Source of the DNA: Candidatus Cloacimonadota bacterium | GTDB taxonomy: Bacteria; Muiribacteriota; UBA6191 | Assembly: GCA_023954715.1 (NCBI GenBank) | Contig: JAGSHD010000006.1 | Coordinates: 132,515-196,514, forward strand | Direction of reading: 5' to 3' | Length of the DNA: 64,000 nucleotides | The notes under the pieces: generated by a model | Seen by the model: the letters and a program-made list of their open reading frames with translations, nothing else | Databases searched by the model: none | What the model was told of the DNA's origin: nothing | Position numbers and translations under genes: made by a program | Shown: positions 18,905 to 54,119 of the stretch, one piece after another | How positions within the stretch are numbered: the stretch's first letter is position 1 | Layout of the letters: each line of letters begins with the position of its first letter

Positions 18905-18915
18905 ATCCCTTTTAA

Positions 18916-20047: not shown

Positions 20048-20049
20048 TT

Positions 20050-33555: not shown

Positions 33556-35601
33556 TTAAAACTGATTTTTGTAGCTTAAACTAATGTTTTCACTAGATCC
33601 ATGACTTAAGTTGCCAGCAAGACTCTGATCTTCCCACTTATAACTAAATTTCAGGCTCTTGTCCCAATTAGCATTTAAAGGATAGTCAAAATCTACATGG
33701 GCTTCTTTGAGTTGCTGTGTCTGTCTATTGAATAGCCCACTATTTTTCCAAATAGCTGCGCCCATATTCATAGTCATAGGTCCACCAACTCTTGATGACA
33801 AGTCTGCTCCTAGTCCTATGCGTGTATTTGCAGAACCATTCACATCTTCACGTCTTTCATGTTGCACGAAAGCCGATGGACTAAACTCTTTATTTCTTTT
33901 GGAATAAAATGCTCTAGTACCCAAGTAAACCACAGTCTCTTCTTCATTTTTTGTTGATAAAACTTTATCATAAGTTGATCGATGTTGGAGTCGTGTATCG
34001 ACCTCAAATCGCTTGAAAGACTTCATTAGATACACATTATGTGTATTTGACTCTAATAACCTACTTCGATCATCTGACTCTTCACGAGACTCATGATACA
34101 TATAGTCAAAAAACACACCATCCATGGAAAACAAGTCGTTTAAATGAAATGATAGAGATGGTCTTATTGTATTCATTGACAATGAATCAATTGTTTCTTG
34201 GTCTTTTCTATACATGGAACGTATATCCCAACTTCCCCAGTTAGAATATTGCCCAACATATATTTCAAGCTCACTAAATGAGTTTAACTCATAAGCCATT
34301 GGTGTATACAAGTCTTTACTATAGTCTTGAATTTTTAGGCCACTAGAGTTATGCCCATCATCATAATCTAAAAACAAATTCAGTCCAAAGCCCCCGCGAT
34401 CATTCCCCACACTTTTGGTGTGCAGTGATGAATTCATTTCAAGGTCTAATGTCAAATGTTCTGATAGCTTTGAATCATGAGAAAAACTAATGTTATGAGC
34501 ATCATTTCGTGTGCTATTGGCATTTGCTGCATAGTACATATATCCCAAAGAAAACTTTTTCCCACTGTCATATTCTTTTTCAACAGAAAAACCAGCTACT
34601 TGATCATATTGTTTGCTATAATCATCAAATGTGTCTTCTCTATTTTCAACGATTCCTAGATAAGCAGAAACCCAAGTATCTTGTCGTGAAGATATCTTTC
34701 TTGAGCTATGAATTCCTCGAAATTCCCGTGCCACAGATAACTTGCCTAAATCCAAAAACGTGTCACCAATAGTAAACTTAGAGCGATCTCCTCGCCATTG
34801 TAGCTGCATCAACTCAAGGTCATAGTCTCCTTTAGATCTTAAACTCGAACTTCCAGCTATAATAGAATAGTCCGAAGTAAACTCATAACCTTTGTGACTA
34901 GTAGCGGTCTTCACATGATGTCTACCTTTGGCATATACTCCATCATGTCTTAACTGATCCGCAGTAAAACCATTTAAAGTTGTCGTACCTACTTCTAATT
35001 CTTGACTATATTTTTGTTGTTTATTGTCCTGATACTCAAAGTATGCAGCTAGTTTACCTTCAACAATTTTTTTCGATAACTTTTTATCACTCACTTCTAA
35101 AAAGCTCAATGCATCTATTTTGTTATATAAGCTTAATAACTCAGATGGTTTGGTGTTTTCAAACAGGTTTTTCACTATCTCGTATTGATTTTCTGTTTTT
35201 ACTTTAGATAATAAAAACTTCTTCAAAATCAATCTTTTCTCTGCATCATCCCCAAGTTCTATAAATGAAAACTCACCCTTTTTTGTTGTTGTTTTAATAT
35301 GGGCTAGATTTCGCTTTTCCTGATCATCTAGCATCCTCATCATCACAACCTTCTCTGTAGAGTTGATGAAAGGAATCCTAGATACAACAGTTTTAGCATC
35401 GTCTTTAGAGATTTTTAGCTTTAGAATTCTAGCAACTAGCTCTTTTGAATGTTTAGTATTTGCTCGTACTGTTAAATACTGAGCAAATTCATTGGAAAAT
35501 ATAATAGTCTCTTTAAAAGATGCATAGACACAAGAAGACATTGCAAACCCTAAAAGGGTTGCTTTGACTATTTTATGGCTATATGGCAAACAAAGATTCA
35601 T
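33556..35601 (-). CDS. Large outer-membrane beta-barrel protein (hypothetical)
   Basis: Signal peptide. Alternating hydrophobic strands. C-terminal ...YKNQF with terminal Phe. Confidence 0.65.
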   Translation of the reverse strand: MNLCLPYSHKIVKATLLGFAMSSCVYASFKETIIFSNEFAQYLTVRANTKHSKELVARILKLKISKDDAKTVVSRIPFINSTEKVVMMRMLDDQEKRNLAHIKTTTKKGEFSFIELGDDAEKRLILKKFLLSKVKTENQYEIVKNLFENTKPSELLSLYNKIDALSFLEVSDKKLSKKIVEGKLAAYFEYQDNKQQKYSQELEVGTTTLNGFTADQLRHDGVYAKGRHHVKTATSHKGYEFTSDYSIIAGSSSLRSKGDYDLELMQLQWRGDRSKFTIGDTFLDLGKLSVAREFRGIHSSRKISSRQDTWVSAYLGIVENREDTFDDYSKQYDQVAGFSVEKEYDSGKKFSLGYMYYAANANSTRNDAHNISFSHDSKLSEHLTLDLEMNSSLHTKSVGNDRGGFGLNLFLDYDDGHNSSGLKIQDYSKDLYTPMAYELNSFSELEIYVGQYSNWGSWDIRSMYRKDQETIDSLSMNTIRPSLSFHLNDLFSMDGVFFDYMYHESREESDDRSRLLESNTHNVYLMKSFKRFEVDTRLQHRSTYDKVLSTKNEEETVVYLGTRAFYSKRNKEFSPSAFVQHERREDVNGSANTRIGLGADLSSRVGGPMTMNMGAAIWKNSGLFNRQTQQLKEAHVDFDYPLNANWDKSLKFSYKWEDQSLAGNLSHGSSENISLSYKNQF

Positions 35602-35840: not shown

Positions 35841-37490
35841 TCAATCAACAAATGAGATAGCATGAAATTTTCCCCAATTTCCTCTACTATCTTGAGCATG
35901 TACAAAGAGCCTATAGTTTCGGAATCCAGGACGAAGTAATATTCTAAACTGCTCGAGTCTTTCATCAAATTTTCCATCTAATGCAAGAACCTTTATACCT
36001 CGTCCATCAGATGATGTTGAATCCAAAAAGTACTCCACTCTTTTAATGATTGAAGTTTCATCTTCAGCTGTTAGATTCACTACCGTGTTAGCACCTTTTA
36101 CTTTGGTCACTATAAAGCTCCCTATTACTTTAGGGCCTCTATAATCGACTCTGTTTTTAGAGTAGTTTTTAATGAATGGAAAATCACCTGTCAAACTCTT
36201 AGGAGTAAATCCTAGTTTCGAGTCTTGTTTAAAAAGTATTCTAAATGTACCACTTTCTTTTATCGCTTCTAGATTACTTCTTGTGGTGGTGATTTTGTTA
36301 AATTTGACTACAATTTGCAGTTTATTTTTAAGCTCCATATATCTCAGTATTTCAAAATGAATACTTTGATGAGATACTTCTCTAAACTCTTGCATTAAAT
36401 CTTCAACTATTAATCTACTTACATTTTTAATAGGACGAAGCACATTTGATAATCTAAATGCATTCTTTCGTTTAAATGACTCTGATAGTTCACTCAACCA
36501 GTTTTCAATGAAGTCTTTGTTTCCTCGCTCACTATAGCTAAAATCAAGATTATTATGTTTTACATCATAAAATTTATCAAAATCTCTCAATCTAAATTGA
36601 ATAGAATATTGTCCTTCTTTTGGAAACCTTTTTACTAAAAAACCTTCTTTATACACTACATCAAAAAAGTTATTTCCTTCATCTAGTGACATTTGTAATA
36701 TTTGATGAGGAAGTCGGTTTTCGATAGTTCCTTCAAATCTCAATTTACCCATGATTAAATCAGCAGAGCCAAAAGTTGGATTATCTCCCATTTCTTCTAC
36801 AGTTAAACCATTTATTGTAAAGTCTCGCAAGTGAACTGTTTCACTTTCATAGCTTTCTGAAAAATCTCGTAGATAAACTGGAATAGGCCATGAACTTTCT
36901 AATCTATACCAAGAAAAGAGTCTTCGAGACTGAGCTGCATCGATGGATAACTTTCTTGAAATCCTATCATTTTCTACAAAGGCTGACTCTCCAGCTTCTA
37001 GAATAATTTGTAAGTCTTGAAATCGTAAATTTAACTTCCCGTCTAAACAGAAGACTTCTAAAAAACCTCGTTGCTCATCAACATGAATCAAAAAATCTCC
37101 ATTGGATGACTCAATGGTACCCATTGGTGTCATAATTTCAAACTCTGTTGGCTTCGGTCGATTTTCATGAAGTAAGTTAAAAAAATATTGACCTTTTAAC
37201 AATTGTAGGCCAATAGTATTTTTACGCTTTAATGATACTCCCTTAAAGACCGAGTGCTCTGTTATTTTAACCTGATCTCCCGTTTTATATTTTAAAAGAG
37301 CAAAAGCATTATCTTCAACTTTTACAAAGCTATTCGTATAAAAGCCTCGATCGTTGGAGATCAACTTATTTTCAGGACCTGTTACAAAAACTCGACCTTT
37401 TTTAATGGCGAATTCTGCTATGTGTTCTTGGGTGTAACTTAATGTACTAATTATTAAAAATATAGGAAATAATATAGGTAGAGATTTCAT
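35841..37490 (-). CDS. Secreted hypothetical protein with FecR-like N-terminal region
   Basis: Signal peptide. N-terminal segment resembles a FecR domain. 1-nt gap to the upstream MBL gene. Confidence 0.5.
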   Translation of the reverse strand: MKSLPILFPIFLIISTLSYTQEHIAEFAIKKGRVFVTGPENKLISNDRGFYTNSFVKVEDNAFALLKYKTGDQVKITEHSVFKGVSLKRKNTIGLQLLKGQYFFNLLHENRPKPTEFEIMTPMGTIESSNGDFLIHVDEQRGFLEVFCLDGKLNLRFQDLQIILEAGESAFVENDRISRKLSIDAAQSRRLFSWYRLESSWPIPVYLRDFSESYESETVHLRDFTINGLTVEEMGDNPTFGSADLIMGKLRFEGTIENRLPHQILQMSLDEGNNFFDVVYKEGFLVKRFPKEGQYSIQFRLRDFDKFYDVKHNNLDFSYSERGNKDFIENWLSELSESFKRKNAFRLSNVLRPIKNVSRLIVEDLMQEFREVSHQSIHFEILRYMELKNKLQIVVKFNKITTTRSNLEAIKESGTFRILFKQDSKLGFTPKSLTGDFPFIKNYSKNRVDYRGPKVIGSFIVTKVKGANTVVNLTAEDETSIIKRVEYFLDSTSSDGRGIKVLALDGKFDERLEQFRILLRPGFRNYRLFVHAQDSRGNWGKFHAISFVD

Positions 37491-37491: not shown

Positions 37492-38325
37492 TTAAATCTC
37501 TATTTCTTGACCTTCATACGCAGCCGAAAAGATGACTCCATCATCTTCAAACTCAGCGTTAGCATCAATCACCATTTGATCAATAAACTCATCGTCATGA
37601 TCTGGATCATGATGAATCATAAGGAGGTTTTTGGCCTCACCTTGAATCATCAAATTACCCGCAGCTCGCCAAGTAGAATGTCCAAAGCTAACTCTCATAG
37701 GATATTCATCCGGTGTGTACTGACAATCATAAGCGGCCATGTCACACCCTCGCACCAATTCAACTAATGCAGGATCTGGATCTTCATCCGATATATGCTC
37801 AATATCAGTCATTAACACAAATATTTTACCATTATCATTAAATCGCATACCAATCACACCATTTGGATGATTCATTGGTATATAAGACATGGTGAAACCG
37901 TTTCCAAAATCCACTTCTCCACGAATGTCTAAATCAGTAAAGCTCAAGCTCGCACCCATTATAGACAAAGGAACCGGAAAATTTGGAGGGCTCATTAAGT
38001 GTTTATCTAAGATATCTTTGGCTGAAAGCTCTCCCTTTCTTTGTCCATAAATATGGATTTTGTTTCCGGGGATAAAGGAAGGTACAAAAAATGGAAAACC
38101 TAGAATGTGGTCCCAATGGTAATGTGTAAAAACTAAATGGACTTCTACGGGTAATGACTTTAAAAGGGATGCGCCTAAAGACCGAATACCTGTTCCTGCA
38201 TCGACAATAACTCGAGTACCTGCATCTGAAATAATTTCATAACAGCTCGAGCTTCCGCCATATCTCATATAGTTCTGGGACGAGACCGGTGTAGATCCTC
38301 TTGAGCCCCATATTCTAACTAACAT
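37492..38325 (-). CDS. MBL-fold metallo-hydrolase
   Basis: THYHWDH (HxHxDH) motif. Conserved downstream His and Asp. Confidence 0.8.
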   Translation of the reverse strand: MLVRIWGSRGSTPVSSQNYMRYGGSSSCYEIISDAGTRVIVDAGTGIRSLGASLLKSLPVEVHLVFTHYHWDHILGFPFFVPSFIPGNKIHIYGQRKGELSAKDILDKHLMSPPNFPVPLSIMGASLSFTDLDIRGEVDFGNGFTMSYIPMNHPNGVIGMRFNDNGKIFVLMTDIEHISDEDPDPALVELVRGCDMAAYDCQYTPDEYPMRVSFGHSTWRAAGNLMIQGEAKNLLMIHHDPDHDDEFIDQMVIDANAEFEDDGVIFSAAYEGQEIEI

Positions 38326-38467: not shown

Positions 38468-41400
38468 CTACTTAATAATAGCAAGCTTCACTATTTTCTT
38501 ATTTGTATTTCCATCCGAATCTTCAATCTGAATTTTCATGAAATAAATACCATTAGCTAAGGAGTCTAAATTAAATTGGTCTAATGGTAAATAGCTATCT
38601 TTGGATATTTGCCCCATATTTTGACTATGTATCCTAGAGGAAGCCGAATCATACAAAGATAAGTGTACTTTTGTCGCTGTTCTATTTAACTTTAGTTTAA
38701 GTTGAGCGTTACTTGATCGTATGGGATTTGGTACAACAATGCTTTCTTGAAAAGCAATAGGCCCTACTGGCTTAACTAAAAGGCTTAATGACTTAGAATT
38801 ACCTAGGTAATCCATAGCATTAATTTCAACATTATTCATCTGACCTTGCTGTAGTTTGGACTTACTAACTCTGATAAACGAATCTTCATCATAAGTTACA
38901 GAATGAAGTGAGTTATTAATTTTAACCTTTAATGCATCAAGGTTAACCCCTACACCTAAATCTTCTACTTTTATAAGTAGATCACTTTCTAAAGCTTCTA
39001 AGTCAATACTTTGATCAATCTCCAAGATCGGGTTTTTACTGTCTTCTATCAAAAGTAGCTTAGATGGATTAGATGACGATAGATATATTTTATCATCTTG
39101 CATAATCTGTGTTTGATAAGTCAAACCATCAACTGAAGACTCCATCACAGCGTATTTTCCCACATTGCCTTTTACATAGTCATTTAAATTAATCTCAAAG
39201 TTACTATCCTTTGCTAGACTCGTCTTAGGAAACATATTAAAGAGTGGGAGATTGTCTTGATTAACTTTTTGATTTGTAGTCCAAGGAAATACGTAAAATG
39301 TGGGTTCTATTCTTGAGACCGCCTGAGAGATCTCACTTACTTTTGATTGAGAAAAAGCTAATCTCTTGACTTGAAAAGGAATCACTCTAGTTATCGAGTT
39401 ACCTTGAACATCTACTCCGGTAATTTCGATTTGTAAAGAGCCCGACAGATTTAAGTTTAAAAGATATCCTCCATGAAAAGCTGAGCTTGTTAACCTCGTG
39501 AGATTAACTATCTGTATTTCATCTGCTGTAGATTGAGTGCCTGGATCTTTCAACTGTCTAATCTGCATATAAGGCAATTGAGATACGTCTTCATCGGTAC
39601 CCCCCTTTTGATGTAAGCCTTTAATTACAAATATAATCTCATTATCATTGGAAGGATGCGAAAAAATTCTAAATTCAAAATATGGGCCTAGGTCTACCTC
39701 GAAGTTATGTGTCCGAGTTAGGCCAACATTATTTGATAGATCATAATAGTTTTCAACTTTAATATAACCTAATCCATTGTAATCAACATCCCCGTCTTCA
39801 GGTAGAATTTTAAAGTTACCTACATATTTGTTACCCTCATAGCTCAATTGATTTAATGTAATCGGAGGGTAAACTTCTATAACTTCTTGATTAAAAGCAT
39901 TTACAATTGTCTTAGATGCTGGATAAAAACGTACAAGAGGAGTTTTGCTAGTATCCATATTTTCAGTAAAAGTAATATGAAACCTTAAATCTCCGTTTAG
40001 TATTGTCCCTTGTAAATTATCTGGTAAAATTGTTCGGTCAAACCCATAGTTTTCTACATCAGGGATACTTCTATCCATTATAATTGTCCTACCATTGGAC
40101 GTTTCACTCCGTTGATTAATTCCATCAATTGCAATTACTCTCCATGACGCCACACCTTCTTGTAAAAAACCCAAATTTACATCGGCTTGAATGGTCTCTC
40201 TATCAAAAGGAAACTCTGTTGAATTATTATCTTTATCTGTTATCACCAAAACATAACTATTTGCAGTAGGCTCAGTTTTCCACTCGAAACGCTGAATACC
40301 TCCAGAAAGTCGATAACCATCAATTGGAGAAACTAATTGAGGTGGACTAAGTAGATCAGAGTTTAAAGACAAGTCCTTAATAACATATCTTTCATTTCCA
40401 GCTTTATCGATAGCTCTAAAGGTTAAACGTACATCACCTTTAAAGTTATAAAATTTCTGTGAAAATTGAAACTCAAACTTTTGACTCTTTGGATAATTGA
40501 CTAGCTTTTTGTTTAAAGGGACTTCCGTCCAAGCCAATACCTCAGGATAGGTGGCTGAGCCAATATTATTTACTGACTCTACTCGTACTTCTACTTTTTG
40601 AACTCCTAGCCCATTTGTACCACCAAAAAGCGGGTATGCAGAGTTTATGACTTGCTCATCTTGCGCAAAACCAGAAAACTCCAGTACCCCAGAGGTTATC
40701 CATATATCATTATTTAAAGCAATGCTTAAATTTGGTGTTATTGTGTCATACATAAAATACGATGTACTTATTTCACCAACATTTAGGCTCAAGTCTACAG
40801 GTAGAATCTCCATCTTATAAATACCATCCATGGAACCATCGGTCTGTAAGCCAATAGGATCTAAAGATACAGGATCTACGTTTAATTCAAAAAGTAACCT
40901 ACCAACTAAAGGTCCCCCAAATACTGGTGCATTGCCACTTGCATCTGCCTTAAATTTGATCCGAGAAGAAGTTATCAATCCAGCTGGTACCGAACCAAAT
41001 GGATGCTCTAAGCGTAAAACTACAGTAGATGTGGGTAAAGTGTTTTGTGAATCTGTTTGAGCACGTAAACCAGACCCTAAGTAGCCATTGCTAGACCTTT
41101 GATCAAATATATATGAAGATAAAATATTTAAGGGGCCTTTTACTACACTTCTGTTAGAGGGTATTCGTGAGTCTCTTTGTTCAAATCCATCTGGAATTGG
41201 AAAATTGATTCCATCCATTACAGATGGTACTTTAGTATCATAAGTATATTGATATACTTTTGGGTTTGATACATTGCCAGCAATATCTGAAATAGTGGCG
41301 TTGGCTACCAATATCCCATCATCTGTTCCGTCTTTTAGTAGGTCTTCTTTAAAATGAAATTTAACACTTGAACTGCTCACAGACTGGGGCTTAGATACTT

Positions 41401-43963
41401 TATACTCTTGAGGACTTCTTAGATAGTTAAAAACTTTTATTTCAGACTTTAACAAATCAATTTCTGAAGTCAAAGTCTCCTCAACACTAATTGATAGAAG
41501 TGGGAGCGAGTTTTCACGTGGTAAGGTATCTGCATTGTAATAAGCATGGTCTTGTGGAGTAAAAGTGACAATCAAGTTAGGTGATAAAGACTCTGTATCT
41601 AGTTGAAGCACTATAGACTCAACAAACGAGTTACCTACCTTATCTCTCATTGTAATTTGAAACAGATAAGTACCATCAGTAACCATAGCAGAGGGACCAG
41701 ATGAATTAGGATAAAAGTCTATAGTTCTTGGATCAAAAACCTCTAATCGACCTTCTACTACATGAGTTGGATCTGTCTCTAAAGGGCCAATACACGATAC
41801 AGTTGAAGTCATAGGGTCAGCACCAGACACCACAAGATTTGAACTATCATCACTCATAACCAAACGTAAAGGAGATGGAGCTGCGTTTATAACCGACCCA
41901 TCAGAAGGAGTAACGAATTGTCGAAACAACTTGGGAGCCAAGGAGTCTACTATAAAAGCTTGAGGTTCACGAAAAGAAGGTACTAAAGTATTACCAGCAG
42001 AGTCTCGGCCTCCCGTGACCAAAATCTCTACTGCCCCATCATTTTTACCATCATTTGATGATTGAACTACATATTGGTATTCAAACTCTAGACCATTATC
42101 AAAAGTATTAGACAATCCAACCTGCTGAGCATAACCTGCTTGTTGTGTAACCCAAACAAAAGGTGCCTCTTCTAGTTTTTCAGAAAGTAGAACTTTTATA
42201 TTTACTGTAGTCCCTGGTAAAAAAAAGATTGGATCTCCACTTTCAATAACAGCATTATTAATTTTGATATTTTTTACAGTTGGAGCTGTTCTATCAATCT
42301 TTATAACTAATTGAGTTTTAGACCCTGGTCCTGAGTTTTGAGCTTTATCTTTAGATATAATATCAACAGTATACTCACCGTCTTGCACATCTCCAATACT
42401 TATAAGGCCTCTAAACTCATCTTCAAGTGCACCAATATTTGCAGCGGGTCTAACATTAAAGTTGGTAGGAGAATGAACAAAGACTCCCCCTTCTGGTTCT
42501 AAACCATCACCATCTATTAAAATTGTATTTGAATTAGTAGCAAAAAATGTATCTTGAGTTAACAAATTTGGAGCACTCGGAGCAACTCGATCAAAAATTA
42601 CAGACCCTAAGTTATGTGGAGGAGAAAACTCTTCTAATGTGGCATCATCCGGTCTTGGAGAAATAACAATTGCTTGCACCTCTAAGGATGCATTTTGGTT
42701 TGGGTTTAAAGCATCAAAAGGAATAGAGATATCCTTCTGGAAGGAAACTCCAGCTGCTACGTTGGTTAGCTGCTCTTCTACTAAAAATTGACTCCCTGAC
42801 ACAATGGATGATACTCGAAACATGATCCTGTGAGTATCAACCTCATTACACACAGCACCCAAAACAGATATAGATTGATTCTGTCCAATGAAAGCCCCAT
42901 CAAATGGTTGCATACTTAACAAGTTGAAACATGGCTCTAATGTCAATCGTCGAACTACTTGGGTTTCAGCTGTTGCTTGATTTCCAGCCGCATCAAAAGC
43001 GATAACCGTATACGTTGTTTCTGTTGTGCCTGCTATAGATACTGTTGGATCTCTTTCTAACTCAACTCCTGCTATTGTTACTCTACCACTCAAGTCTGTC
43101 ATTCTAATTAATTTGTTAGTATTTCGAGAGTTTGTGACGTGAACTTGAGCAAAAGGCTCATTCGTCTCTACAATTAATCCAAACACCGCCAGCTCGGTTG
43201 GTCCTGCGGGATCAGCTGTACCCCCAGGTAATGTCGTACTTACGCCGGTAATGACAGGAGCAGTTGTATCATGAAACATTCTAAGAAAATCACTTTCTTT
43301 TTGAATACCAAGATTGCTAGCCCCTTGATCTAATACCTGTGCCTTGAGTTGAACTAAATTTAATTGATTTGCTACAAGAGGTATATTGGTAATTACACCA
43401 TTACCTGTTGAAAAAACCGTATCTGACTTTACTTCTGTTCCGTTGATAAAAGTCTTTATTTCATAACTACTAGCGTTTCCATTTAAAGTATAATGAGCTT
43501 CAATCTCTGGTTGAGTAGTATATAGACTAATAGCCCCACCGGACTCCTGTAGATGGTTTAGAGTCAAATTAGTTACGTTATATTCAAGATCTCTTACAAT
43601 ATTATTTATCGTTGTTGTTACTGGAGTAACAGCAACAGAAAAACCAACAACCGTTAGAGCAAAAGAGTTGCTTCCTTCGTTTAGCGATAACTTAACAAAG
43701 AAGTCCTCTTCTCCCGTATGGCTAAATTGCTCTCTCGAATTTATTATTTGATTGGGAAAGCCTTGACGTATAGCTCGTACACTATAGACTCCAGGATCAG
43801 CTTTCAATCGTAACTTTAAAGCTATTGACGAACCAGTTCTACTATTTAAATTGGATTGACTTAAAGAAGGTAACACTTCAATAATATTGAATTCTTGAAT
43901 TGCCCCATACGCAAATGTATTAAAAAGTATATATAAAAAAACGATTAGCCGTTTAGCTGTCAT
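38468..43963 (-). CDS. Giant secreted surface protein (1831 aa) with T9SS-type C-terminal sorting-domain-like tail
   Basis: Signal peptide. Long Ig/FN-like repetitive body. C-terminus PNP...LSLYDSASSRI...LANGIYFMKIQ...KKIVKLAIIK. Confidence 0.7.
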   Translation of the reverse strand: MTAKRLIVFLYILFNTFAYGAIQEFNIIEVLPSLSQSNLNSRTGSSIALKLRLKADPGVYSVRAIRQGFPNQIINSREQFSHTGEEDFFVKLSLNEGSNSFALTVVGFSVAVTPVTTTINNIVRDLEYNVTNLTLNHLQESGGAISLYTTQPEIEAHYTLNGNASSYEIKTFINGTEVKSDTVFSTGNGVITNIPLVANQLNLVQLKAQVLDQGASNLGIQKESDFLRMFHDTTAPVITGVSTTLPGGTADPAGPTELAVFGLIVETNEPFAQVHVTNSRNTNKLIRMTDLSGRVTIAGVELERDPTVSIAGTTETTYTVIAFDAAGNQATAETQVVRRLTLEPCFNLLSMQPFDGAFIGQNQSISVLGAVCNEVDTHRIMFRVSSIVSGSQFLVEEQLTNVAAGVSFQKDISIPFDALNPNQNASLEVQAIVISPRPDDATLEEFSPPHNLGSVIFDRVAPSAPNLLTQDTFFATNSNTILIDGDGLEPEGGVFVHSPTNFNVRPAANIGALEDEFRGLISIGDVQDGEYTVDIISKDKAQNSGPGSKTQLVIKIDRTAPTVKNIKINNAVIESGDPIFFLPGTTVNIKVLLSEKLEEAPFVWVTQQAGYAQQVGLSNTFDNGLEFEYQYVVQSSNDGKNDGAVEILVTGGRDSAGNTLVPSFREPQAFIVDSLAPKLFRQFVTPSDGSVINAAPSPLRLVMSDDSSNLVVSGADPMTSTVSCIGPLETDPTHVVEGRLEVFDPRTIDFYPNSSGPSAMVTDGTYLFQITMRDKVGNSFVESIVLQLDTESLSPNLIVTFTPQDHAYYNADTLPRENSLPLLSISVEETLTSEIDLLKSEIKVFNYLRSPQEYKVSKPQSVSSSSVKFHFKEDLLKDGTDDGILVANATISDIAGNVSNPKVYQYTYDTKVPSVMDGINFPIPDGFEQRDSRIPSNRSVVKGPLNILSSYIFDQRSSNGYLGSGLRAQTDSQNTLPTSTVVLRLEHPFGSVPAGLITSSRIKFKADASGNAPVFGGPLVGRLLFELNVDPVSLDPIGLQTDGSMDGIYKMEILPVDLSLNVGEISTSYFMYDTITPNLSIALNNDIWITSGVLEFSGFAQDEQVINSAYPLFGGTNGLGVQKVEVRVESVNNIGSATYPEVLAWTEVPLNKKLVNYPKSQKFEFQFSQKFYNFKGDVRLTFRAIDKAGNERYVIKDLSLNSDLLSPPQLVSPIDGYRLSGGIQRFEWKTEPTANSYVLVITDKDNNSTEFPFDRETIQADVNLGFLQEGVASWRVIAIDGINQRSETSNGRTIIMDRSIPDVENYGFDRTILPDNLQGTILNGDLRFHITFTENMDTSKTPLVRFYPASKTIVNAFNQEVIEVYPPITLNQLSYEGNKYVGNFKILPEDGDVDYNGLGYIKVENYYDLSNNVGLTRTHNFEVDLGPYFEFRIFSHPSNDNEIIFVIKGLHQKGGTDEDVSQLPYMQIRQLKDPGTQSTADEIQIVNLTRLTSSAFHGGYLLNLNLSGSLQIEITGVDVQGNSITRVIPFQVKRLAFSQSKVSEISQAVSRIEPTFYVFPWTTNQKVNQDNLPLFNMFPKTSLAKDSNFEINLNDYVKGNVGKYAVMESSVDGLTYQTQIMQDDKIYLSSSNPSKLLLIEDSKNPILEIDQSIDLEALESDLLIKVEDLGVGVNLDALKVKINNSLHSVTYDEDSFIRVSKSKLQQGQMNNVEINAMDYLGNSKSLSLLVKPVGPIAFQESIVVPNPIRSSNAQLKLKLNRTATKVHLSLYDSASSRIHSQNMGQISKDSYLPLDQFNLDSLANGIYFMKIQIEDSDGNTNKKIVKLAIIK

Positions 43964-44142: not shown

Positions 44143-44176
44143 AAAAAAAAAGAGACCCACACATTGTGTAGGTCTC
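44143..44176 (-). terminator. Rho-independent terminator after rpoC
   Basis: On the minus strand, a GAGACC...GGTCTC stem is followed by a T9 run. Confidence 0.75.
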
Positions 44177-44207: not shown

Positions 44208-47200
44208 TTAATCGTCGGATTCTGTTGATACATTCAACTCTTTTAAGAACTCTGTACCAAGATTATCTTCAAGAGAAATTTCGAAATTTCCTTCAAGTTC
44301 TTCTCGGTCTTCAGAACCATTAATTAAGCTCTCTTTATCATCAAAATCATATTTTAGGTATCTATCGAAACCAGTACCAGCTGGAATCAAGTTACCCATA
44401 ATAATGTTTTCTTTTAATCCACTTAAGTTATCAATCTTAGATTGGATTGCAGCGTTTGTAAGAACCTTAGTTGTTTCTTGGAACGAAGCGGCAGATAGAA
44501 AACTATCTGTAGTCAACGATGCCTTAGAAATACCTTGGATAATACTTACAGCAGTTGCAGGCTTAAATTTGTCTTTGATCAAAGCATCATTCGTTTTCTT
44601 AAATTCAAAAGCATTGATAATATTACCAGTGTTGTATGGAGAGTCTCCAGAACCAGTAATTCTTACCTTAGAAACCATTCGTCGAAGAATCGTTTCAACG
44701 TGCTTATCATTAATTGTTACACCCTGAGATGTATAAACCGTTTGTACTTCATTCAATAAGTATTTTTGAGCATCAAAGATACCTAAAGACTCACTTAATG
44801 ATTTAACATCAACATCGCCATCAGTTAACTTATCACCAATACTTACATATTCACCATCAGTTACAATAAGATCACCAAGTGCTCCTGTTACAACCTGCTT
44901 TTCAGAATTCTTTTCATTTTCAATAACAATATTGTTACCTCTAATTCTTAGAACTCCACTTCGAGATGAGATCAAAGAGTAAACTTTTGGATTTCTAACT
45001 TCGAATAGAGAGTTAATTCTTGGAAGACCCTGAACAATATCAGTAGTTTTCTTACCAGCACCACTCCATTTAGCTAAAATATCACCTGGCTTAATTTCTG
45101 CATTTTCTTTTACAAAGATTTCAGCACCATCTGGAATGGAGTGAACCTCTCCAGCTTGTACTTGAACGCTTTCGATAACTGATCTTACTTTTCCTGTTTT
45201 AGTTAAAGCATGAATCAATTTAACAGTACCATCAGACTCAGTTACCATACGAGCAATTTGATCACCCTTCTTAACTTCACCTTCTGTTACTAATACTTCG
45301 ATATCATCAGTTACAGTATATTTCTTTTCGTTTACTTCTTCTCTTGTAAAACAAACACCATCTTCTAAAGCCTCAAAGTTTGTATACTCTAAGAATTCAG
45401 TAATAGCATCACCTTTTTCTACTTTTTGACCATTCTTAACACAAAGTGGTAATCCAGTAGATAAGAAATAATCTTTTCCTGAATATACTAAGATAGATCG
45501 AACCATTTCTTCGCCAGTTCGCTTATTGTATTCAGTAATAAAGTTTACTTTACCTTCAATATCAGCAACGATTGGAGCAAAAGAGTTAATTAACTTAGCT
45601 CCCACTTCGACTTCGTCACCTTCAGCTACTAATAATTCAGCGTTTCCAGGAGTGATATACTCTCTAGATGTTTCATCATTAGTAATGATAATACGCTTAG
45701 ACTCAGATAATGCAGATACTTCTACTTTACCAACAGACTCACGCTTTTCATATAGATCTTGAGCGATTTCACTTGTTACTTCTTCACCGGCTTTGTATAA
45801 AACAGCACCTTCATGAGAGGCATCTTCCATGAAAACAGCTCCAACTAAAGATTCTGGCTGAAGATCTTCTTCAAGTAGTACAGATGATTTTGCATAATGA
45901 TCTTTAATTGCTACTGTTCCTTCTACTTCTGTGATGAAAGGAATCGTACCAGTTAATTTCTGACCAACTTCAACATCATCACCAGACTGAACAACAACAT
46001 TGTCAAATCTCAATTGGCAACTTTCAGGAATTACATATTCACGCTCATCCTTTATCAATACTCTACGTCTATCAACAGTTTTATTAGAAGCAGATCGGTA
46101 ACTAATCAACTTAACAATACCGTTACCTTCAGCTAAAAATCGAACTTGTTTATTATCTTCATCTAATTCAACATCCATTGAACCAGTCATATAGTATTCA
46201 CTTGATTTCTTGTGAATTACAGATAGAGTTTTTCTACCAGTATATTTAACTTCACCAGAGAATTCTGCAAAGATACTACATAGTTCATCGTTGGCTTTCA
46301 CCTGATCTCCAGATTTAACCTTAAGAACTACGCCTAAATCACCTGGTAAACCAATTGGCTTTGTAGCGGATGATTTTAGACCCTTTGGAGATTCATAGAT
46401 ATTATCTTCTAAATCATCAGAAGCGATAAAGATCATTCCGTTTTCTGAAATAACTCTTTGGTTTTTAATCTTAATATCTCTAAATTCTGCTGTACCATGG
46501 CTTGATGCAATAACAATAGATCTTTCTTTTTCAAGTAAGTATAAGTTATCACCAGCAGCTACAGTCTCACCATCTTCAACAGCAAGTGCAGATCCTTTAG
46601 GAATCTTATAAGAACCTAAAAGTTTTGTAGAATCGGCACTGTCATATACTTCGATCTCACCATCATGAACAACTACACCATCTTTACGAACGATGCTAGC
46701 AAATTTCACAACTCCACTGTAAGAAGTAATATATGTACTTGGATTGTACTCAACAAGAACTTGACCTGCAGTAACGAATTCGCCTTCTTCAACTCTTAAG
46801 ACCCCACCTTGTGGCATAACAAACTCATACTTCTTACCTTTTTTATCAGTAATTTTAAGTACTCCACCTGTTACAATCTTTTTAACGTTGTCATCAAATT
46901 CATCGTTTTCAGAAGCATCGTTTCCAGTATCAATCTGAAATCTAGCTCTTTCAACTTTATACTCATAAGTTAAGTCATCTAAAGAGATATGACCAGTAAC
47001 TTTTGCTTTTACCACAATTCTAGCTGCTTCAGCAATACCACCAGTGTGGAAGGTTCTCATTGTTAACTGAGTACCAGGCTCACCAATAGATTGTGCTGCA
47101 ATAACACCAACAGCAGTACCAATAGATACATTTTGACCTGTTGATAAATCAATTGCGTAACATTTTCTACAAACTCCCCATTCTACTTTACAAGTAATTG

Positions 47201-50162
47201 GAGATCGTACCCATACTTGTGGGTATACACGAACATCATCAATATCATGTGCTTTAAATTGCTCAATCAACTGTGGAGTGATCAATTGATCCGGACCACA
47301 GATAATAGAATTATCAACTAAGTTAACAACACATTCATCAGTTAACATTCCAGGCTTAATCTTATCAACTCTTAAAGAAGTTGTAGTTAAAGAAATTTGC
47401 TTAGCAATTTCTTTAGTAATTGTGATTCCACCTTTTAAAATAGTTTTATTTGTTTCAGGATGAACTACATCTTTTAACAATGTTCTAGCAAAGATACGAT
47501 CTTCAATTGGAATAACGATCTCATCCACTAAAATGTTGTTAGTTGTTCTTTTTCCACGAAGAGGAGACATTCTAAGACCATGTTCTGTACCACAATCTTC
47601 TGTAGTAACAATAACATCTTGAGCAACGTCAACTAATCTTCTTGTTAAATATCCTGAATCGGCTGTACGAAGAGCAGTATCCACAAGACCTTTTCTAGCT
47701 CCATAAGTAGAGATAAAATAATCGGTCATTGTAAGACCCTCTTTAAAGGATCTCTTGATCGGAACGTGCATAATATCCCCGTGCGGGTTAGACATCAATC
47801 CACGCATACCAGCCAACTGCTTCATCTGCTGAACATTACCTCTAGCCCCAGAAATTGCCATGGTATAGATCGGATTGAATTCTCCGTTTTCCCATTTTTG
47901 CTTATAGTGAGCCATCATATCATCTGTTACTTCTTCAGTAGCATTGATCCAAAGGTCAACTTCCGCTTTCTTACGCTCTTCAAGGTTAATCTCTTTATTA
48001 GAAAAACGATCTGCAATTTTCCTTGCTCGTTCTTCTGCAACTGCCATGATGTGATCTTTTCTAGGCGGCTTTTCTAGATCAGACAATGCAATTGTTAATC
48101 CAGAGAATGTTGCATATCTAAATCCAACATCTTTAATAGCATCCAAGAGTAGTACTGTTTCATTTGTACCACAAGTTTCATAACATAACTCGATAATATT
48201 CATTAGTTTCTTTTTATCGAAACGATAATTATGATATCCAATTTCATTTGGAATAATATCATTGAATAATACTCTACCAATTGTTGTCACATAATATTTG
48301 TTGAATTCATCTGTACCACGTTCTGCTTCTAGAGGGTTCTTAACAAGAACCGAATCATGCATTTCGTGATTTCCGTTTTCAAAGCTTAAAAGAGCTTCTT
48401 TTGCTGAAGAATATTTTTGTAAATCTAAAATAGTAACTTCAGGGATTTTTGCCTTTTTAATTACTTTGAACTCATCCAATTGGATAATACCAGATGCACT
48501 TACAATCTTAGTACCTGCTGCATCGCAGATATCATCATAAGCTACAGCAACTCCGCTTCCAAATTTAATCATTTCTTCTAGTGAAGGTACTTTTAATGAC
48601 TTCTTGCTACCAACTGGCATAGTCTTTGTTTTTTCCCACTTAACTTGGTTAGTCAGGTAAAAAGCACCAATAGACATATCTTGTGATGGAGCAGCTACTG
48701 CACGACCAGAAGAAGCAGCTAAAATGTTGTAAGAAGACATCATTAATATTCGAGCTTCTACTTGTGCCTCAAGTAAAAGTGGAATATGTACAGCCATCTG
48801 ATCCCCATCGAAATCGGCATTAAATGCACCACAAACTAATGGGTGTAACTGTATAGCTTTTCCTTGAACCAAGATTGGTTCGAAAGCTTGAATTCCTAAT
48901 CTATGAAGTGTAGGAGCACGGTTCAGCATAATTGGGTGATCTCTTACGATCTCCTCTAATACTTTCCATACGTTTTCATCTTCTTTTTCAATCAATTTTT
49001 TAGCTGATTTGATATTGTGTGCAAAAGCATACTCTACCAATTTATTCATGATAAAAGGCTTAAATAATTCAAGAGCCATCTTTTGTGGTAAACCACACTG
49101 ATGCAATCTTAAATCTGGTCCAACCACAATAACTGATCGACCAGAATAATCCACACGCTTACCAAGTAAGTTTTGTCTGAATCGTCCTTGCTTACCTTTT
49201 AACATATCATTTAGAGATTTTAGTGGTCTGTTTCCAGAACCAGTCACTAAACGACCTCTTCTACCATTATCAATCAAAGCATTTACTGCTTCTTGAAGCA
49301 TACGCTTCTCGTTTTTGATAATAATATCTGGAGCATTCAATTTCATTAATCGCTTTAAACGATTGTTTCTGTTGATTACTCTTCTATATAAATCATTTAA
49401 ATCAGAAGTAGCAAATCTACCACCATCTAGTTGAACCATAGGACGTAAATCCGGTGGAATAACTGGTAATACATCAATAATCATCCACTCTGGTCTATTT
49501 TTAGAGTTCATGAATACTTCAGCTACTTGTAGTCTATTTACAATATTTTGTTTTTTTGAACCTAAATCTTCACGTAATTTACGCTTTAAGTCCTCAACCA
49601 ATTTTGAAAGATCTAACTCTCTAAGTAGTTCTGCAACTGCAACCCCACCTGTACCAGCTCGATACATATCTCCATATCGTTCTTGATACTGAGCATGCTC
49701 GTCTTCACTTAAGATTTGCTTCTTAAGAAGAGGTAAACTACCTGGATCAATTACAATATAAGAGTTAAAGTACAATACTTTTTCAAAATCTCTTGCAGTA
49801 ATATCTAACAATAGAGCGATATAATTTGGTGTACCTTTTGAGTACCAGATATGAGCAACAGGAGCTACTAACTCAATGTGTCCCATTCTTTCACGACGCA
49901 CATTAGATCGAGTTACCTCAACACCACATCGTTCACAAACCAAACCCTTATATCGGATACTTTTATATTTCCCACAGAAACATTCCCAATCTTTGGTAGG
50001 TCCAAAGATACGCTCACAAAACAATCCATCTCTTTCTGGACGGTGAGTTCTGTAGTTGATTGTTTCTGGCTTTTTTACAACACCCTTTGACCATTGTCTA
50101 ACAGTCTCAGGAGAAGCAATACTAATTTGAATGGAAGATAATTCCTTAATTCCTTTTAACAT
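44208..50162 (-). CDS. rpoC: DNA-directed RNA polymerase subunit beta' with ~665-aa SBHM-repeat insertion in the trigger loop
   Basis: [12 protein letters not shown]. Trigger-loop halves [19 protein letters not shown] at ~aa 1040 and [14 protein letters not shown] at ~aa 1710. Repeated V.xGd.L SBHM motifs between them. Confidence 0.97.
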
Positions 50163-53100: not shown

Positions 53101-54119
53101 GGATGCTTGATCGTGTTTACACTGAATTGACCAGATAGCTTCTCAATGAAGCCCATTTTCTTGTTGAACTTATATCGCCCAACTTCACCAAGATCATATC
53201 TCTTTGCATTTCCGTATAGATTATCTACTAATTGCTTAGCATTATCGAAAATGAATGGTTCGCCAGGGCGTAATTTACGGTAGATTTCTTCAAGTGACTT
53301 TACTTCGTCTGTAGTTTTATCTACTTTTAATGTGTTTTTAATGTAGTTTAAAGTATCACCGTGATCCAATTCTTGGATCATTTCATCATCATTTAGCCCA
53401 AGCACTCTTAAATATTGAGTTACAGGAACCTTTCTTTTACGGTCGATACGAATGTGAAAAAGATCTCGCATTACATCAAGATCGAATTCTAGCCAAGCAC
53501 CTCTATAAGGAACAATTTTCCCTTGATAGATTTTTTTAGCTTTATTATATTCATAGTATACACCTGGAGATCTGTGTAATTGAGAAACAACAACTCTTTC
53601 AGCACCATTGATGATAAAAGTACCACGTGTAGTCATCAAAGGAAGATTTACAACAAATAATTCTTGTTCTTTGATTTCTCCAGATAACTTGTTAATCAAT
53701 CGAATTCTCATGTTTAATGGGATTCCGTAAGTTAGATCACGCTTTTGACACTCTTCTGGAGAGAATTTAATTCTATACGTTTGATCTCCAAATTTTGCGA
53801 AATGACAATCATCTGCAAATTCTGGGCATTCATCCATTAACCATTGTTGATTTGTGTTTTGGTGTTTCTTTAACCACTCTTCTGGAGGTGGTAGTCCTAG
53901 ATCATAATCAATAAATTCTAGAATAATGTTTTCTGTAAAATCTTTGATTGGAAAAGTTTCAGTTAGAATCTCTTGAAGACCTCTTCTTTTTCGGTCTGCT
54001 TTTGCAACATCCGCTTGTAAAAAGTCTTTGAAGGATTCTGTTTGAATTTCTAGGAGGTTTGGAACGTTATGGTGGCTATCACCTAATTCATTGATAAAAA
54101 TTCTTTTATTTTTCGCCAT
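50166..54119 (-). CDS. rpoB: DNA-directed RNA polymerase subunit beta
   Basis: Full-length conserved beta subunit. Only 3 nt separate it from rpoC. Confidence 0.97.
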   Translation of the reverse strand: MAKNKRIFINELGDSHHNVPNLLEIQTESFKDFLQADVAKADRKRRGLQEILTETFPIKDFTENIILEFIDYDLGLPPPEEWLKKHQNTNQQWLMDECPEFADDCHFAKFGDQTYRIKFSPEECQKRDLTYGIPLNMRIRLINKLSGEIKEQELFVVNLPLMTTRGTFIINGAERVVVSQLHRSPGVYYEYNKAKKIYQGKIVPYRGAWLEFDLDVMRDLFHIRIDRKRKVPVTQYLRVLGLNDDEMIQELDHGDTLNYIKNTLKVDKTTDEVKSLEEIYRKLRPGEPFIFDNAKQLVDNLYGNAKRYDLGEVGRYKFNKKMGFIEKLSGQFSVNTIKHPKTDEVLVKADDVLDADIISTLVDARIDEIRIRTLDDIELTVKRPKQSFLVEFAEGEGLCQPLHEGVCVAGDIYDTETDELIIADGEPLENETIFRLVDRQNNLKQKHVEKLDEDVPAGSICLQKHCVVDAEDILHTMKYIIDLSIGVGFVDDIDHLGHRRIRRVGELLQNQFRVSLARMDRVIKERMTIQDVNNLTPQLLINTRAISSSIDEFFGSSQLSQFMDQVNPLSELTHKRRLSALGPGGLKRERAGYEVRDVHPTHFGRICPIETPEGPNAGLIGSMAICARIDRYGFLITPLRHFKNTKPAESFEYMDALMEEKYRVVPYNQGFYTGNDLVEDVFPVKQYVEGEQDFTMLQAKEAELIHISPLQMISIASSLIPFIEHDDANRALMGTNMQRQAVPLVRTDSPIVGTGMESYTAQNSGACVSAKFKGEVVYTDATVVKVKRTEREDCLDNFGPEFYSYCENRTVETEIKDTKGKTLFKVGHVLTSKDIETLRAKCEDVICIYFEKVDKYPLRKYARSNQGTCVNQKPCVKAGEMVEAHEVIADGPSTAQGELSLGKNVICAFMPFRGYNFEDAIVLSERLVHEDIYTSVHISSLEVEARDTKLGAEEITRDIPSISEDALSVLDDNGIIQIGAEVKPGDILVGKITPKGETELTAEDKLLRAIFGEKAKEVRNTSLVVPHGGRGKVIDVVVFSRENKDELPYGVNKLVRVYLAQKRIISEGDKMAGRHGNKGVISKIFPRRDMPFLSDGTTVDVILNPLGVPSRMNLGQVMETHLGWAGRVLGEKYATSSFNEHNKVSNEKFLDDKFAEAAKVLTEKNATTNLRQEPIMPANGRMTLYDGENGEAYAAPIMVGIMYMLKLIHLVEDKIHARSTGPYSLVTQQPLGGKAQFGGQRFGEMEVWALEAYGAAHVLRELLTIKSDDVEGRVVVYENIVKGNNVMNPNIPESFKVIISELKGLGLNIEFNTEKEN

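What the first reader, a model, noticed from the sequence alone, without database searches (positions are those of the whole stretch)
38468..43963. 1831-aa secreted protein ending in a T9SS-type C-terminal sorting-domain-like tail, in a genome that also encodes type IVa pili
The last ~90 residues follow the pattern of Por/T9SS type-A C-terminal domains: VVPNPIRSS...KVHLSLYDSASSRI...LANGIYFMKIQIEDSDGNTNKKIVKLAIIK. That pattern is PNP, then a Y-D-x-x-G-R/K-like strand, then G-I-Y-F-x-K, then a KK-I/V-x-L-x-I-I-K ending. The body is long, Thr/Ser/Asn-rich and repetitive, consistent with an adhesin or S-layer-like surface protein. T9SS cargo signals are characteristic of Bacteroidota and allied phyla such as Fibrobacterota and Gemmatimonadota. 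Finding one beside a PilMNOPQ secretin pathway and a TolB-like/OMP block hints at an unusual lineage or secretion repertoire. The gene lies immediately downstream of the rpoC terminator.
Basis: partly seen in the sequence, partly recalled or inferred. Interest (0 to 1): 0.55.

Follow-up and report, generated by a model that had tools for sequence, protein, structure and literature searches.

The report
Giant surface protein with T9SS tail
This is a real 1831-residue secreted protein built from many immunoglobulin-like modules and ending in a genuine type IX secretion sorting domain. It is conserved right after the RNA polymerase genes in every sampled member of the little-known uncultured phylum UBP17, but public annotation already labels the tail, and whether the phylum has the matching secretion machine could not be checked.

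Summary
The ORF is real: 38468-43963, on the minus strand, 1831 aa, with a Sec signal peptide, and it follows the rpoC terminator. Scored alone, its last ~95 residues pass the curated cut-offs for the T9SS type-A sorting domain: TIGR04183 27.3 bits against 23, and PF18962 30.0 against 27. All six orthologues tested match TIGR04183. The best solved-structure match is the C-terminal domain of P. gingivalis PorU, and AlphaFold2 gives a confident 7-strand sandwich. NCBI already names this exact protein "T9SS type A sorting domain-containing protein".

The body is an array of diverged bacterial Ig-like modules (Big_13 and Big_3 types), not a sequence repeat.

The genome belongs to GTDB phylum UBP17, close to MAG NORP72, which was formerly filed under Cloacimonetes. 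In every UBP17 locus with sequence there, the order is rpoC, this gene, an MBL-fold hydrolase, a FecR-domain protein, then an orphan ~680-aa predicted outer-membrane protein.

Orthologues keep a near-constant length of 1827-1844 aa. Distant homologues in another lineage lie near type IV pilus genes and a PorV/PorQ-family gene.

T9SS core genes in UBP17 could not be searched. No other CTD-bearing protein was seen.

Verdict: a new member of a known kind, of modest interest.

The parts
38468..43963 (-). Gene for the 1831-aa giant Ig-module protein with a T9SS type-A C-terminal domain (stop codon 38468-38470)
   Evidence: ORF list and translation. An identical protein is in NCBI, named 'T9SS type A sorting domain-containing protein'.
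43904..43963 (-). N-terminal Sec-type signal peptide, residues 1-20 (MTAKRLIVFLYILFNTFAYG|A). It has no lipobox cysteine.
   Evidence: By inspection. The same K/R-hydrophobic-AxG pattern occurs in the orthologues.
38753..43903 (-). Body, residues ~21-1737: roughly 15 diverged bacterial Ig-like modules
   Evidence: Big_13 scores 45 bits in the target and hits 9 of 9 family members; Big_3_2, Big_3_4 and Big_3_3 hit several. The D-x-x-G-N module-end motif occurs 9 times against 0.55 expected, about 100-120 aa apart or multiples of that. The penultimate module folds as an Ig-like sandwich.
38471..38752 (-). T9SS type-A C-terminal sorting domain (CTD), residues ~1738-1831, with motifs VVPNP, LYDSxS, ANGIYF and KKIVKLAIIK
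   Evidence: TIGR04183 27.3 bits and PF18962 30.0 bits when scored alone. P1745, N1746, P1747, D1772, N1804, G1805, Y1807 and K1826 are invariant across nine family members. A profile of six orthologues hits the PorU CTD (6za2) at E 2.9e-4. AlphaFold2 gives a 7-strand sandwich at pLDDT about 90.
44143..44176 (-). Intrinsic terminator of rpoC (11-bp stem, 6 G-C pairs, T-run); the target therefore has its own transcription start
37492..38325 (-). Co-conserved MBL-fold metallo-hydrolase (277 aa, HYHWDH motif, no signal peptide, so cytoplasmic)
   Evidence: Lactamase_B_2, 57 bits. RNase Z / cyclic-nucleotide phosphodiesterase-like, below cut-offs. Sequence. Syntenic in all UBP17 loci.
35841..37490 (-). 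Co-conserved secreted FecR-domain protein (549 aa, with signal peptide); starts 1 nt after the MBL gene ends
   Evidence: PF04773 FecR, 32.3 bits. Sequence. Syntenic. No relative in the PDB.
33556..35601 (-). Co-conserved orphan predicted outer-membrane protein (681 aa): signal peptide, ~190-aa helical N-terminal part, then a strand-rich part ending ...LSYKNQF with an invariant terminal Phe
   Evidence: No Pfam, NCBIfam or PDB family, whether searched as a single sequence or as an 11-member profile. Only about 13 representatives among 1.84 billion proteins. Syntenic. The AlphaFold2 model was unusable, at pLDDT 30.
44208..50162 (-). rpoC (1984 aa), the upstream neighbour and the synteny anchor
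16597..21818 (-). pilM-pilN-pilO-pilP-pilP-pilQ block for the type IVa pilus alignment complex and secretin, about 17 kb downstream of the target

Best explanation
The gene encodes a Sec-exported giant cell-surface protein: about 15 diverged bacterial Ig-like modules in a chain, ending in a true member of the T9SS type-A C-terminal sorting-domain family.

The most likely route is as follows (inferred, not shown):
1. The signal peptide takes the protein into the periplasm.
2. The folded CTD is recognised by a T9SS-type outer-membrane translocon and a PorV-type shuttle.
3. The CTD is cleaved off by a PorU-type sortase.
4. The Ig-module chain is left anchored on, or released from, the cell surface.
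5. There it serves as an adhesin or structural fibre for a particle-associated marine bacterium.

The gene is a vertically inherited, single-copy, constant-length core gene of the uncultured phylum UBP17 (class UBA6191). It is fixed directly after rpoBC. It is followed by a conserved trio: a cytoplasmic MBL-fold hydrolase, a secreted FecR-domain protein and an orphan predicted outer-membrane protein. Those three may regulate it or help anchor it; this too is inference.
For: Shown:
- The ORF, the signal peptide and the CTD motifs are present.
- The isolated CTD passes the curated cut-offs of TIGR04183 and PF18962.
- Six of six orthologues match TIGR04183, best E 1.2e-7.
- The motif residues stay invariant at about 40% overall identity.
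- The orthologue profile's best PDB sequence hit is the CTD of P. gingivalis PorU, 6za2 residues 1055-1154, E 2.9e-4.
- The AlphaFold2 model of the last 200 aa has pLDDT 84.9 and a 7-strand C-terminal sandwich. Its top Foldseek hit in the PDB is PorU, E 2.6e-7.
- Ig-like families hit all nine family members.
- The order rpoC, target, MBL, FecR, OMP is found in every UBP17 locus with sequence there, and in none of about 70 rpoC loci from other phyla.
- Orthologue length is 1827-1844 aa.
- Distant homologues (20-24% identity over more than 1000 aa, with the same CTD) lie beside pilB-pilT-pilC and pilin genes. They are 8 kb from a PorV/PorQ-family gene that scores NF033709 109 bits against a cut-off of 90.

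From the literature: T9SS is reported or suspected in several FCB-group phyla beyond Bacteroidota, including Cloacimonadota and Fibrobacterota (PMC11285876). NORP72, the closest MAG, was originally placed with Cloacimonetes (PMC9426571).
Against: - No T9SS core gene (porK/L/M/N, sprA, porU, porV, porP, porQ and others) was found in the 64-kb window or in about 200 kb of UBP17 loci held. The rest of the genome could not be searched.
- No second CTD-bearing protein was seen, although T9SS organisms usually have dozens. Nothing turned up among 4926 ORFs of the held loci. Among 1.84 billion representatives, only orthologues and body-homologous relatives appeared. This test is weak, because typical paralogous CTDs would score below the database-wide threshold.
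- In full-length context the CTD scores 20.4 and 22.4 bits, just under the cut-offs. The related FlgD_ig fold also scores weakly.
- UBP17's relationship to the FCB group is not established. rpoC shows no special affinity to the single Bacteroidota locus recovered: 41% against 44-50% for Clostridia, Planctomycetota and Melainabacteria, in a biased sample.
- Codon usage is that of ordinary genes, not highly expressed ones. This argues against an abundant S-layer protein.
Confidence: 0.6

Rival explanations
1. The C-terminal domain is only a structural Ig-like or FlgD-like sandwich that resembles T9SS CTDs. On this view UBP17 has no T9SS, and the protein reaches the surface by another general route or stays in the periplasm or on the outer membrane.
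For: - The HMM scores are marginal and fall below the cut-offs in full-length context.
- FlgD_ig also scores, at 21.4 bits.
- The CTD carries the same D-x-x-G-N motif as the body modules.
- No T9SS gene and no other CTD protein was seen in the sequence available.
- The phylum is not known to belong to the T9SS-bearing FCB group.
Against: - The best matches are consistently T9SS-specific: TIGR04183, and the CTD regions of the PorU, PorZ and T9SS-dependent protease models.
- The best PDB hit by both sequence and structure is the PorU CTD.
- The canonical PNP, GxY and terminal-K motifs are invariant, and the domain is strictly C-terminal in every homologue.
- A PorV/PorQ-family gene lies close to distant homologues.
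Confidence: 0.22
2. The conserved downstream genes form a dedicated, lineage-specific export or anchoring device for this one CTD-bearing cargo. The orphan ~680-aa outer-membrane protein would be the channel or anchor and the secreted FecR-domain protein a periplasmic adaptor. The device would be independent of, or replace, the canonical T9SS.
For: - Target, MBL, FecR and OMP co-occur strictly in all UBP17 loci, down to 21-39% identity.
- Gene spacing is tight in a relative: 55, 4 and 47 nt.
- The outer-membrane protein family exists only alongside this cargo: about 13 representatives among 1.84 billion proteins.
- Only one CTD cargo family is visible.
Against: - There is no homology or fold evidence for any transport function in either protein.
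- The structure prediction of the outer-membrane protein failed.
- The distant homologues with the same CTD lack this trio.
- Synteny alone does not show function, and one member of the block (MBL) is cytoplasmic.
Confidence: 0.1
3. The long ORF is an assembly artefact or a pseudogene, and the CTD resemblance is chance.
For: None beyond the marginal full-length HMM scores.
Against: Collinear orthologues of 1827-1844 aa occur in at least seven independent assemblies from different projects. Conservation is uniform along the length.
Confidence: 0.01

Closest known systems
T9SS type-A CTD cargo proteins (TIGR04183 / PF18962), for example P. gingivalis RgpB, and PorU and PorZ, which carry the same domain
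   Same: - Signal peptide plus a strictly C-terminal domain of about 90 aa.
- The PNP, YD-x-x-G, G-x-Y-F and K-x-x-K-hydrophobic motifs.
- A predicted 7-strand Ig-like sandwich.
- The best solved relative is the PorU CTD.
   Different: - The host is the uncultured phylum UBP17, for which no T9SS has been described.
- Scores are only just above the cut-offs.
- No machinery genes and no further cargo were seen in the sequence available.
Large T9SS-secreted surface adhesins of Bacteroidota such as Flavobacterium johnsoniae RemA (type-A CTD) and SprB (own knowledge, not tested here)
   Same: A very long, beta-rich modular surface protein exported through a CTD, with a plausible adhesive role.
   Different: - No detectable sequence homology of the body.
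- No lectin or SprB repeat families.
- No gliding-motility genes seen.
- The length is fixed rather than variable in repeat number.
Giant tandem-Ig adhesins of Proteobacteria (SiiE, the ice-binding adhesin MpIBP, the RTX adhesin extender regions)
   Same: The two C-terminal modules superpose on tandem Ig domains of SiiE and the RTX adhesin extenders: Foldseek E 7e-7 to 2e-4. The body is a chain of Ig-like modules.
   Different: - Those proteins are type I secretion substrates with RTX or C-terminal T1SS signals and near-identical repeats.
- This protein has a Sec signal peptide, a T9SS-type CTD and highly diverged modules.
Fibrobacter succinogenes cell-surface proteins with basic C-terminal (T9SS) domains
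   Same: A non-Bacteroidota organism that combines TIGR04183-type tails with type IV pilins for surface attachment (PMC6851124).
   Different: The Fibrobacter cargo are mostly glycoside hydrolases, and many proteins carry the tail. Here only one giant non-enzymatic protein family is seen.

Membership tests
T9SS type-A C-terminal sorting domain (TIGR04183 / PF18962) | HMM score at or above the curated cut-off | tested here: met
   The isolated C-terminal 110 aa scores TIGR04183 27.3 bits (cut-off 23) and PF18962 30.0 bits (cut-off 27). All six orthologues match TIGR04183 at E down to 1.2e-7. Caveat: scored within the full-length protein it gets 20.4 and 22.4 bits, just below the cut-offs.
T9SS type-A C-terminal sorting domain (TIGR04183 / PF18962) | Located at the extreme C-terminus of a protein that has an N-terminal Sec signal peptide | tested here: met
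   The domain ends at the last residue in the target and in every homologue. The signal peptide was judged by inspection.
T9SS type-A C-terminal sorting domain (TIGR04183 / PF18962) | Conserved CTD motifs (PxP near strand 1, G-x-Y in strand 6, basic/hydrophobic end) and a 7-strand Ig-like sandwich | tested here: met
   PNP, DS, ANGxY and the terminal K are invariant. AlphaFold2 gives 7 strands at pLDDT about 90. The top PDB hit by sequence and by Foldseek is the PorU CTD. The fold is predicted, not solved.
T9SS cargo (functional membership) | The genome encodes the T9SS core (PorK/L/M/N or GldK/L/M/N, SprA/Sov, PorV, PorU and others) | not testable with these tools
   None is in the 64-kb window or in the held UBP17 loci. 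Indirect evidence only: a PorV/PorQ-family gene (109 bits, cut-off 90) lies 8 kb from distant homologues in another lineage.
T9SS cargo (functional membership) | The genome carries a repertoire of many CTD proteins | tested here: inconclusive
   No other CTD was found among 4926 ORFs of the held loci. Database-wide searches returned only orthologues and body-homologous relatives. Typical paralogous CTDs would fall below the significance threshold in databases of 10^9 proteins.
T9SS cargo (functional membership) | The CTD is cleaved by PorU and the cargo is attached to the surface or released | not testable with these tools
   Needs proteomics or genetics.
T9SS type-B CTD (TIGR04131 / CHU_C) | HMM match to the type-B / CHU_C model, with an adjacent porP/sprF-like gene | tested here: not met
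   CHU_C scores 13.2 bits against a cut-off of 27. TIGR04131 is not among the NCBIfam hits. No PorP/SprF-like neighbour was found.
PorV/PorQ family (tested for the co-conserved 681-aa outer-membrane protein) | Match to NF033709, NF033710 or PF19572 | tested here: not met
   No NCBIfam or Pfam hit. hhalign of the family profile against a bona fide PorV-family protein gives probability 0.1%.
Bacterial Ig-like domain arrays (Big_13 / Big_3 group) | Pfam match above the gathering score | tested here: met
   Big_13 scores 45 bits (gathering score 27) in the target. It hits 9 of 9 family members, best E 9.9e-21. Big_3_2, Big_3_3 and Big_3_4 hit several members.

The most novel reading that the evidence does not exclude
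UBP17 would be a phylum outside the recognised T9SS range, lacking the canonical machine. On this reading it exports a single, universally conserved giant Ig-chain protein through a T9SS-type CTD, using a dedicated phylum-specific device made of the co-conserved orphan outer-membrane protein and the secreted FecR-domain protein. That would be either a minimal, one-cargo relative of type IX sorting or an evolutionary precursor of it.
Probability: 0.1. Interest if true: 0.7.

Novelty: new member of a known kind. Interest (0 to 1): 0.35.

Why it matters
If UBP17 really runs a T9SS-type sorting pathway, the known range of that system extends to another deep, uncultured marine phylum. That phylum has been singled out as having the highest density of unknown gene families per genome (PMC10849945).

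The protein is one of the few envelope components there with an interpretable function. It is phylum-wide, constant in length and fixed next to rpoBC. That makes it a useful marker, and a candidate determinant of the particle-attached lifestyle reported for these deep-sea MAGs (PMC9426571).

The co-conserved orphan outer-membrane protein and FecR-domain protein are concrete targets for working out how such cargo is handled outside Bacteroidota.

Taken alone, a CTD-tagged Ig-repeat protein is ordinary, and automatic annotation had already recognised it.

Tried and rejected
1. Searching the genome for T9SS core genes. This was not possible. The single genome-collection scan went on rpoC, to identify the lineage and the synteny. 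The window's own protein is not in the contig index.

2. Secretion-system table of a published UBP17 MAG (supplement of PMC9426571). It is stored truncated, without a T9SS column or row labels, so it was unusable.

3. Structure of the 681-aa outer-membrane protein. AlphaFold2 with only three close homologues gave pLDDT 30, which is unusable. Profile searches of an 11-member family alignment against PDB sequences and Pfam found nothing significant. hhalign against a PorV-family protein was negative.

4. Metagenome scan with the PorV-family protein found near the distant homologues. It returned only the same lineage, three loci. The extra 9 kb upstream held housekeeping genes (MiaB, RecJ, MetF-like, LolC-like) and no further T9SS genes.

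5. Combined profile search with a chimeric alignment. I therefore ran a single chimeric query, the window's OMP681 joined to the window's CTD.

7. The idea that the protein is an abundant S-layer protein. I lowered this because its codon usage matches ordinary genes.

8. The idea that it is a repeat-variable adhesin. I lowered this because there are no sequence repeats and length is constant.

9. Rfam and tRNA scans. They found only tRNA-Trp at 57275-57350 and nothing near the target.

10. Literature search for T9SS surveys covering candidate phyla. It returned nothing relevant.
Full report
**Observation.** The ORF list shows one ATG-started ORF of 1831 aa at exactly 38468..43963. It is on the minus strand; the plus-strand reading is full of stops. 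It begins with a typical Sec signal peptide, MTAKRLIVFLYILFNTFAYG|A, which has no lipobox cysteine.

The upstream genes on the same strand are rpoB (50166..54119) and an unusually long rpoC (44208..50162, 1984 aa). A strong intrinsic terminator sits at 44176..44143, right after the rpoC stop: an 11-bp stem with 6 G-C pairs and a T-run. It lies about 180 nt before the target's ATG.

The window also holds pilM, a pilN-sized ORF, pilO, two pilP-like ORFs and the pilQ secretin, at 16597..21818.
- The gene is on the minus strand.
- The body is not repetitive at sequence level, with only one weak internal match. It is only mildly enriched in S+T+N: 23.3% against 18.5% in the window's other proteins.

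**The tail.** Scored alone, the last 110 residues reach TIGR04183 27.3 bits (cut-off 23) and PF18962 30.0 bits (gathering score 27). They also align to the C-terminal ends of the PorU, M6-like and M36 T9SS-dependent protein models. Scored inside the full-length protein, the same domain gets 20.4 and 22.4 bits, just under the cut-offs. The match is real but not strong. The type-B model CHU_C scores only 13 bits.

I recovered orthologues from six further assemblies. In all of them the domain ends at the last residue. The residues P-N-P, D-S, A-N-G-x-Y and the terminal K are invariant. All six sequences tested match TIGR04183, with best E 1.2e-7.

A profile of the six orthologous tails was searched against all PDB sequences. 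Its best hit is the CTD of Porphyromonas gingivalis PorU (6za2, residues 1055-1154, E 2.9e-4), aligned through PNPV, YD-x-x-G and G-x-Y.

AlphaFold2 on the last 200 residues used a five-sequence alignment and gave mean pLDDT 84.9. The model has an Ig-like module followed by a seven-strand sandwich at pLDDT about 90. Its top Foldseek match in the PDB is again PorU (E 2.6e-7). After that come tandem-Ig adhesins such as SiiE.

By sequence and by predicted fold, the tail is a member of the T9SS type-A CTD family. NCBI's pipeline reached the same conclusion. The identical protein is deposited as [quoted passage not shown].

**The body.** Pfam finds Big_13 at 45 bits, plus weaker Big_3_4 and Big_3_2. 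Across nine family members, Big_13 hits all nine and Big_3_2, Big_3_3 and Big_3_4 hit several. The module-end motif D-x-x-G-N occurs nine times against 0.55 expected, spaced about 100-120 aa apart or multiples of that. This implies roughly 15 highly diverged Ig-like modules. No PDB sequence matches the full protein.

Orthologues at about 40% identity are collinear. Conservation is even along the whole length, and lengths are 1827-1844 aa. That is unlike adhesins whose repeat number drifts. Codon usage resembles ordinary genes rather than the ribosomal and RNA polymerase set. This speaks against a very abundant S-layer protein.

**Lineage.** I scanned one genome per GTDB species with rpoC. It returned nine close loci:
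- NORP72, at 93% identity
- UBP17_UBA6191
- BROCD023
- several "binchicken" MAGs, at 68-85%

Everything else was at 50% identity or below and came from unrelated phyla.

Published work places NORP72 and its relatives in GTDB phylum UBP17 (class, order and family UBA6191, genus GCA-2402105). The GC content is about 34.6%, as in the window. Their origin is deep-sea and particle-associated, and they were "formerly known as Cloacimonetes" (PMC9426571). The phylum has about ten genomes (PMC11382960). It has the highest density of novel gene families per genome of any phylum (PMC10849945).

However, the coexistence of T9SS signals with type IV pili is not peculiar in itself. Fibrobacter succinogenes combines TIGR04183 tails with type IV pilins (PMC6851124).

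**Genomic context.** In every UBP17 locus that includes sequence downstream of rpoC, the order is: rpoC, the target's orthologue, an MBL-fold hydrolase, a FecR-domain protein, then a ~680-aa protein. An oppositely oriented CarboxypepD_reg/PD40 protein usually follows, then rpsB-tsf-pyrH-frr. None of the roughly 70 rpoC loci from other phyla has the block.

Gene spacing in the window is 142, 1 and 239 nt. In a relative it is 55, 4 and 47 nt, so an operon is plausible.

The three downstream genes look like this:
- The MBL protein has no signal peptide and an HYHWDH motif, so it is cytoplasmic.
- The FecR-domain protein has a signal peptide.
- The ~680-aa protein has a signal peptide, a helical N-terminal part of about 190 aa and a strand-rich remainder. 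It ends in an invariant terminal Phe, which is the usual signature of an outer-membrane barrel.

That last protein matches no Pfam, NCBIfam or PDB family, either as a single sequence or as an 11-member profile. Only about 13 representatives exist among 1.84 billion proteins. Its AlphaFold2 model was unusable, at pLDDT 30. It is unrelated to a PorV-family protein by hhalign.

**Wider family.** I ran a full HMMER search of 1.84 billion representatives. The query joined the window's outer-membrane protein to the window's CTD. The only CTD matches it found were orthologues, their fragments, and more distant proteins of 1435-2362 aa. Those distant proteins also align over more than 1000 residues of the body at 20-24% identity, and they end in the same CTD.

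Their contexts differ from UBP17's:
- In one lineage, two paralogues lie in tandem.
- In another (GC 49%), two tandem giants sit directly upstream of rpsL-rpsG-fusA and directly downstream of pilB-pilT-pilC and two pilin genes. A gene 8 kb away passes the PorV/PorQ family model: NF033709 109 bits against a cut-off of 90.

This is the only T9SS-machinery-type gene I could tie to the family, and it is not in UBP17 itself.

**What could not be shown.** No T9SS core gene is present in the window or in the roughly 200 kb of UBP17 loci held. The rest of the genome was out of reach.

No second CTD protein was seen either. That test has little power: ordinary paralogous CTDs would score below significance in databases of 10^9 proteins, and 64 kb is expected to hold only about one such gene.

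**Conclusion.** The best-supported reading is a Sec-exported, Ig-module surface protein with a genuine T9SS type-A sorting domain. It is a conserved core gene of phylum UBP17 and is probably exported and processed by a T9SS-type pathway.
- Confidence that the tail belongs to the CTD family: about 0.85.
- Confidence that the protein is really T9SS-dependent in this organism: about 0.55-0.6.

The rivals are these:
- The domain is merely a structural Ig-like sandwich in a phylum without T9SS (about 0.2).
- The co-conserved orphan outer-membrane protein and FecR-domain protein form a dedicated device for this one cargo (about 0.1).

As a kind of thing, it is a new member of a known class that automatic annotation had already recognised. 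What is new here is its strict conservation and synteny in an almost unstudied phylum, and its orphan partners.

Noticed in passing
window 44208-50162 (-): rpoC encodes 1984 aa. Pfam domain 5 is stretched over residues 809-1877 by several hundred extra residues that give weak sandwich-barrel-hybrid / biotin-lipoyl-like hits (1175-1207, 1277-1300, 1507-1559, 1643-1716). This looks like a very large trigger-loop insertion. The same length (1988 aa) is seen in a UBP17 relative at 72% identity.
   Followed up: partly
window 23486-24784 (-) and 25020-26294 (-): Two adjacent RseP-like site-2 protease paralogues (Peptidase_M50 with PDZ). The second is much more diverged: 61.6 bits against 167.8.
   Followed up: no
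window 18527-18904 (-) and 18916-19293 (-): Two tandem 125-aa PilP-like ORFs sit between pilO and pilQ. Both are below the TIGR03021 cut-off.
   Followed up: no
window 14595-16424 (-), 57643-58851 (-), 58848-60080 (-): Three sizeable ORFs (609, 402 and 410 aa) have no Pfam or significant NCBIfam family. The last two occupy the place upstream of tRNA-Trp and nusG where tuf is usually found.
   Followed up: no
L085/L086 10001-24027; L083 3195-13726; L089 ~1-11509: Distant homologues of the target occur as tandem pairs of giant CTD proteins. In two lineages they lie directly upstream of rpsL-rpsG-fusA, so the family tends to sit beside the rpoBC/str region in more than one lineage. In L089, a long-read contig, the gene is broken into many small ORFs, probably by frameshift errors.
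   Followed up: partly
L085 1266-2246 (+): A 326-aa PorV/PorQ-family outer-membrane protein (NF033709, 109 bits) is encoded next to a CarboxypepD_reg-domain protein and an NHL-repeat protein, just upstream of pilB-pilT-pilC. The 9 kb further upstream holds only housekeeping genes.
   Followed up: yes
window 43964-44142 and the start regions of all genes: The target has no Shine-Dalgarno-like motif upstream of its ATG, whereas 34 of 48 genes in the window do. No consensus sigma-70 promoter was found on the minus strand between the rpoC terminator and the ATG.
   Followed up: no
window 31698-33503 (+): A 601-aa CarboxypepD_reg + PD40 (TolB-like propeller) protein lies on the opposite strand. It is conserved in position next to the four-gene block in UBP17 relatives.
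   Followed up: partly
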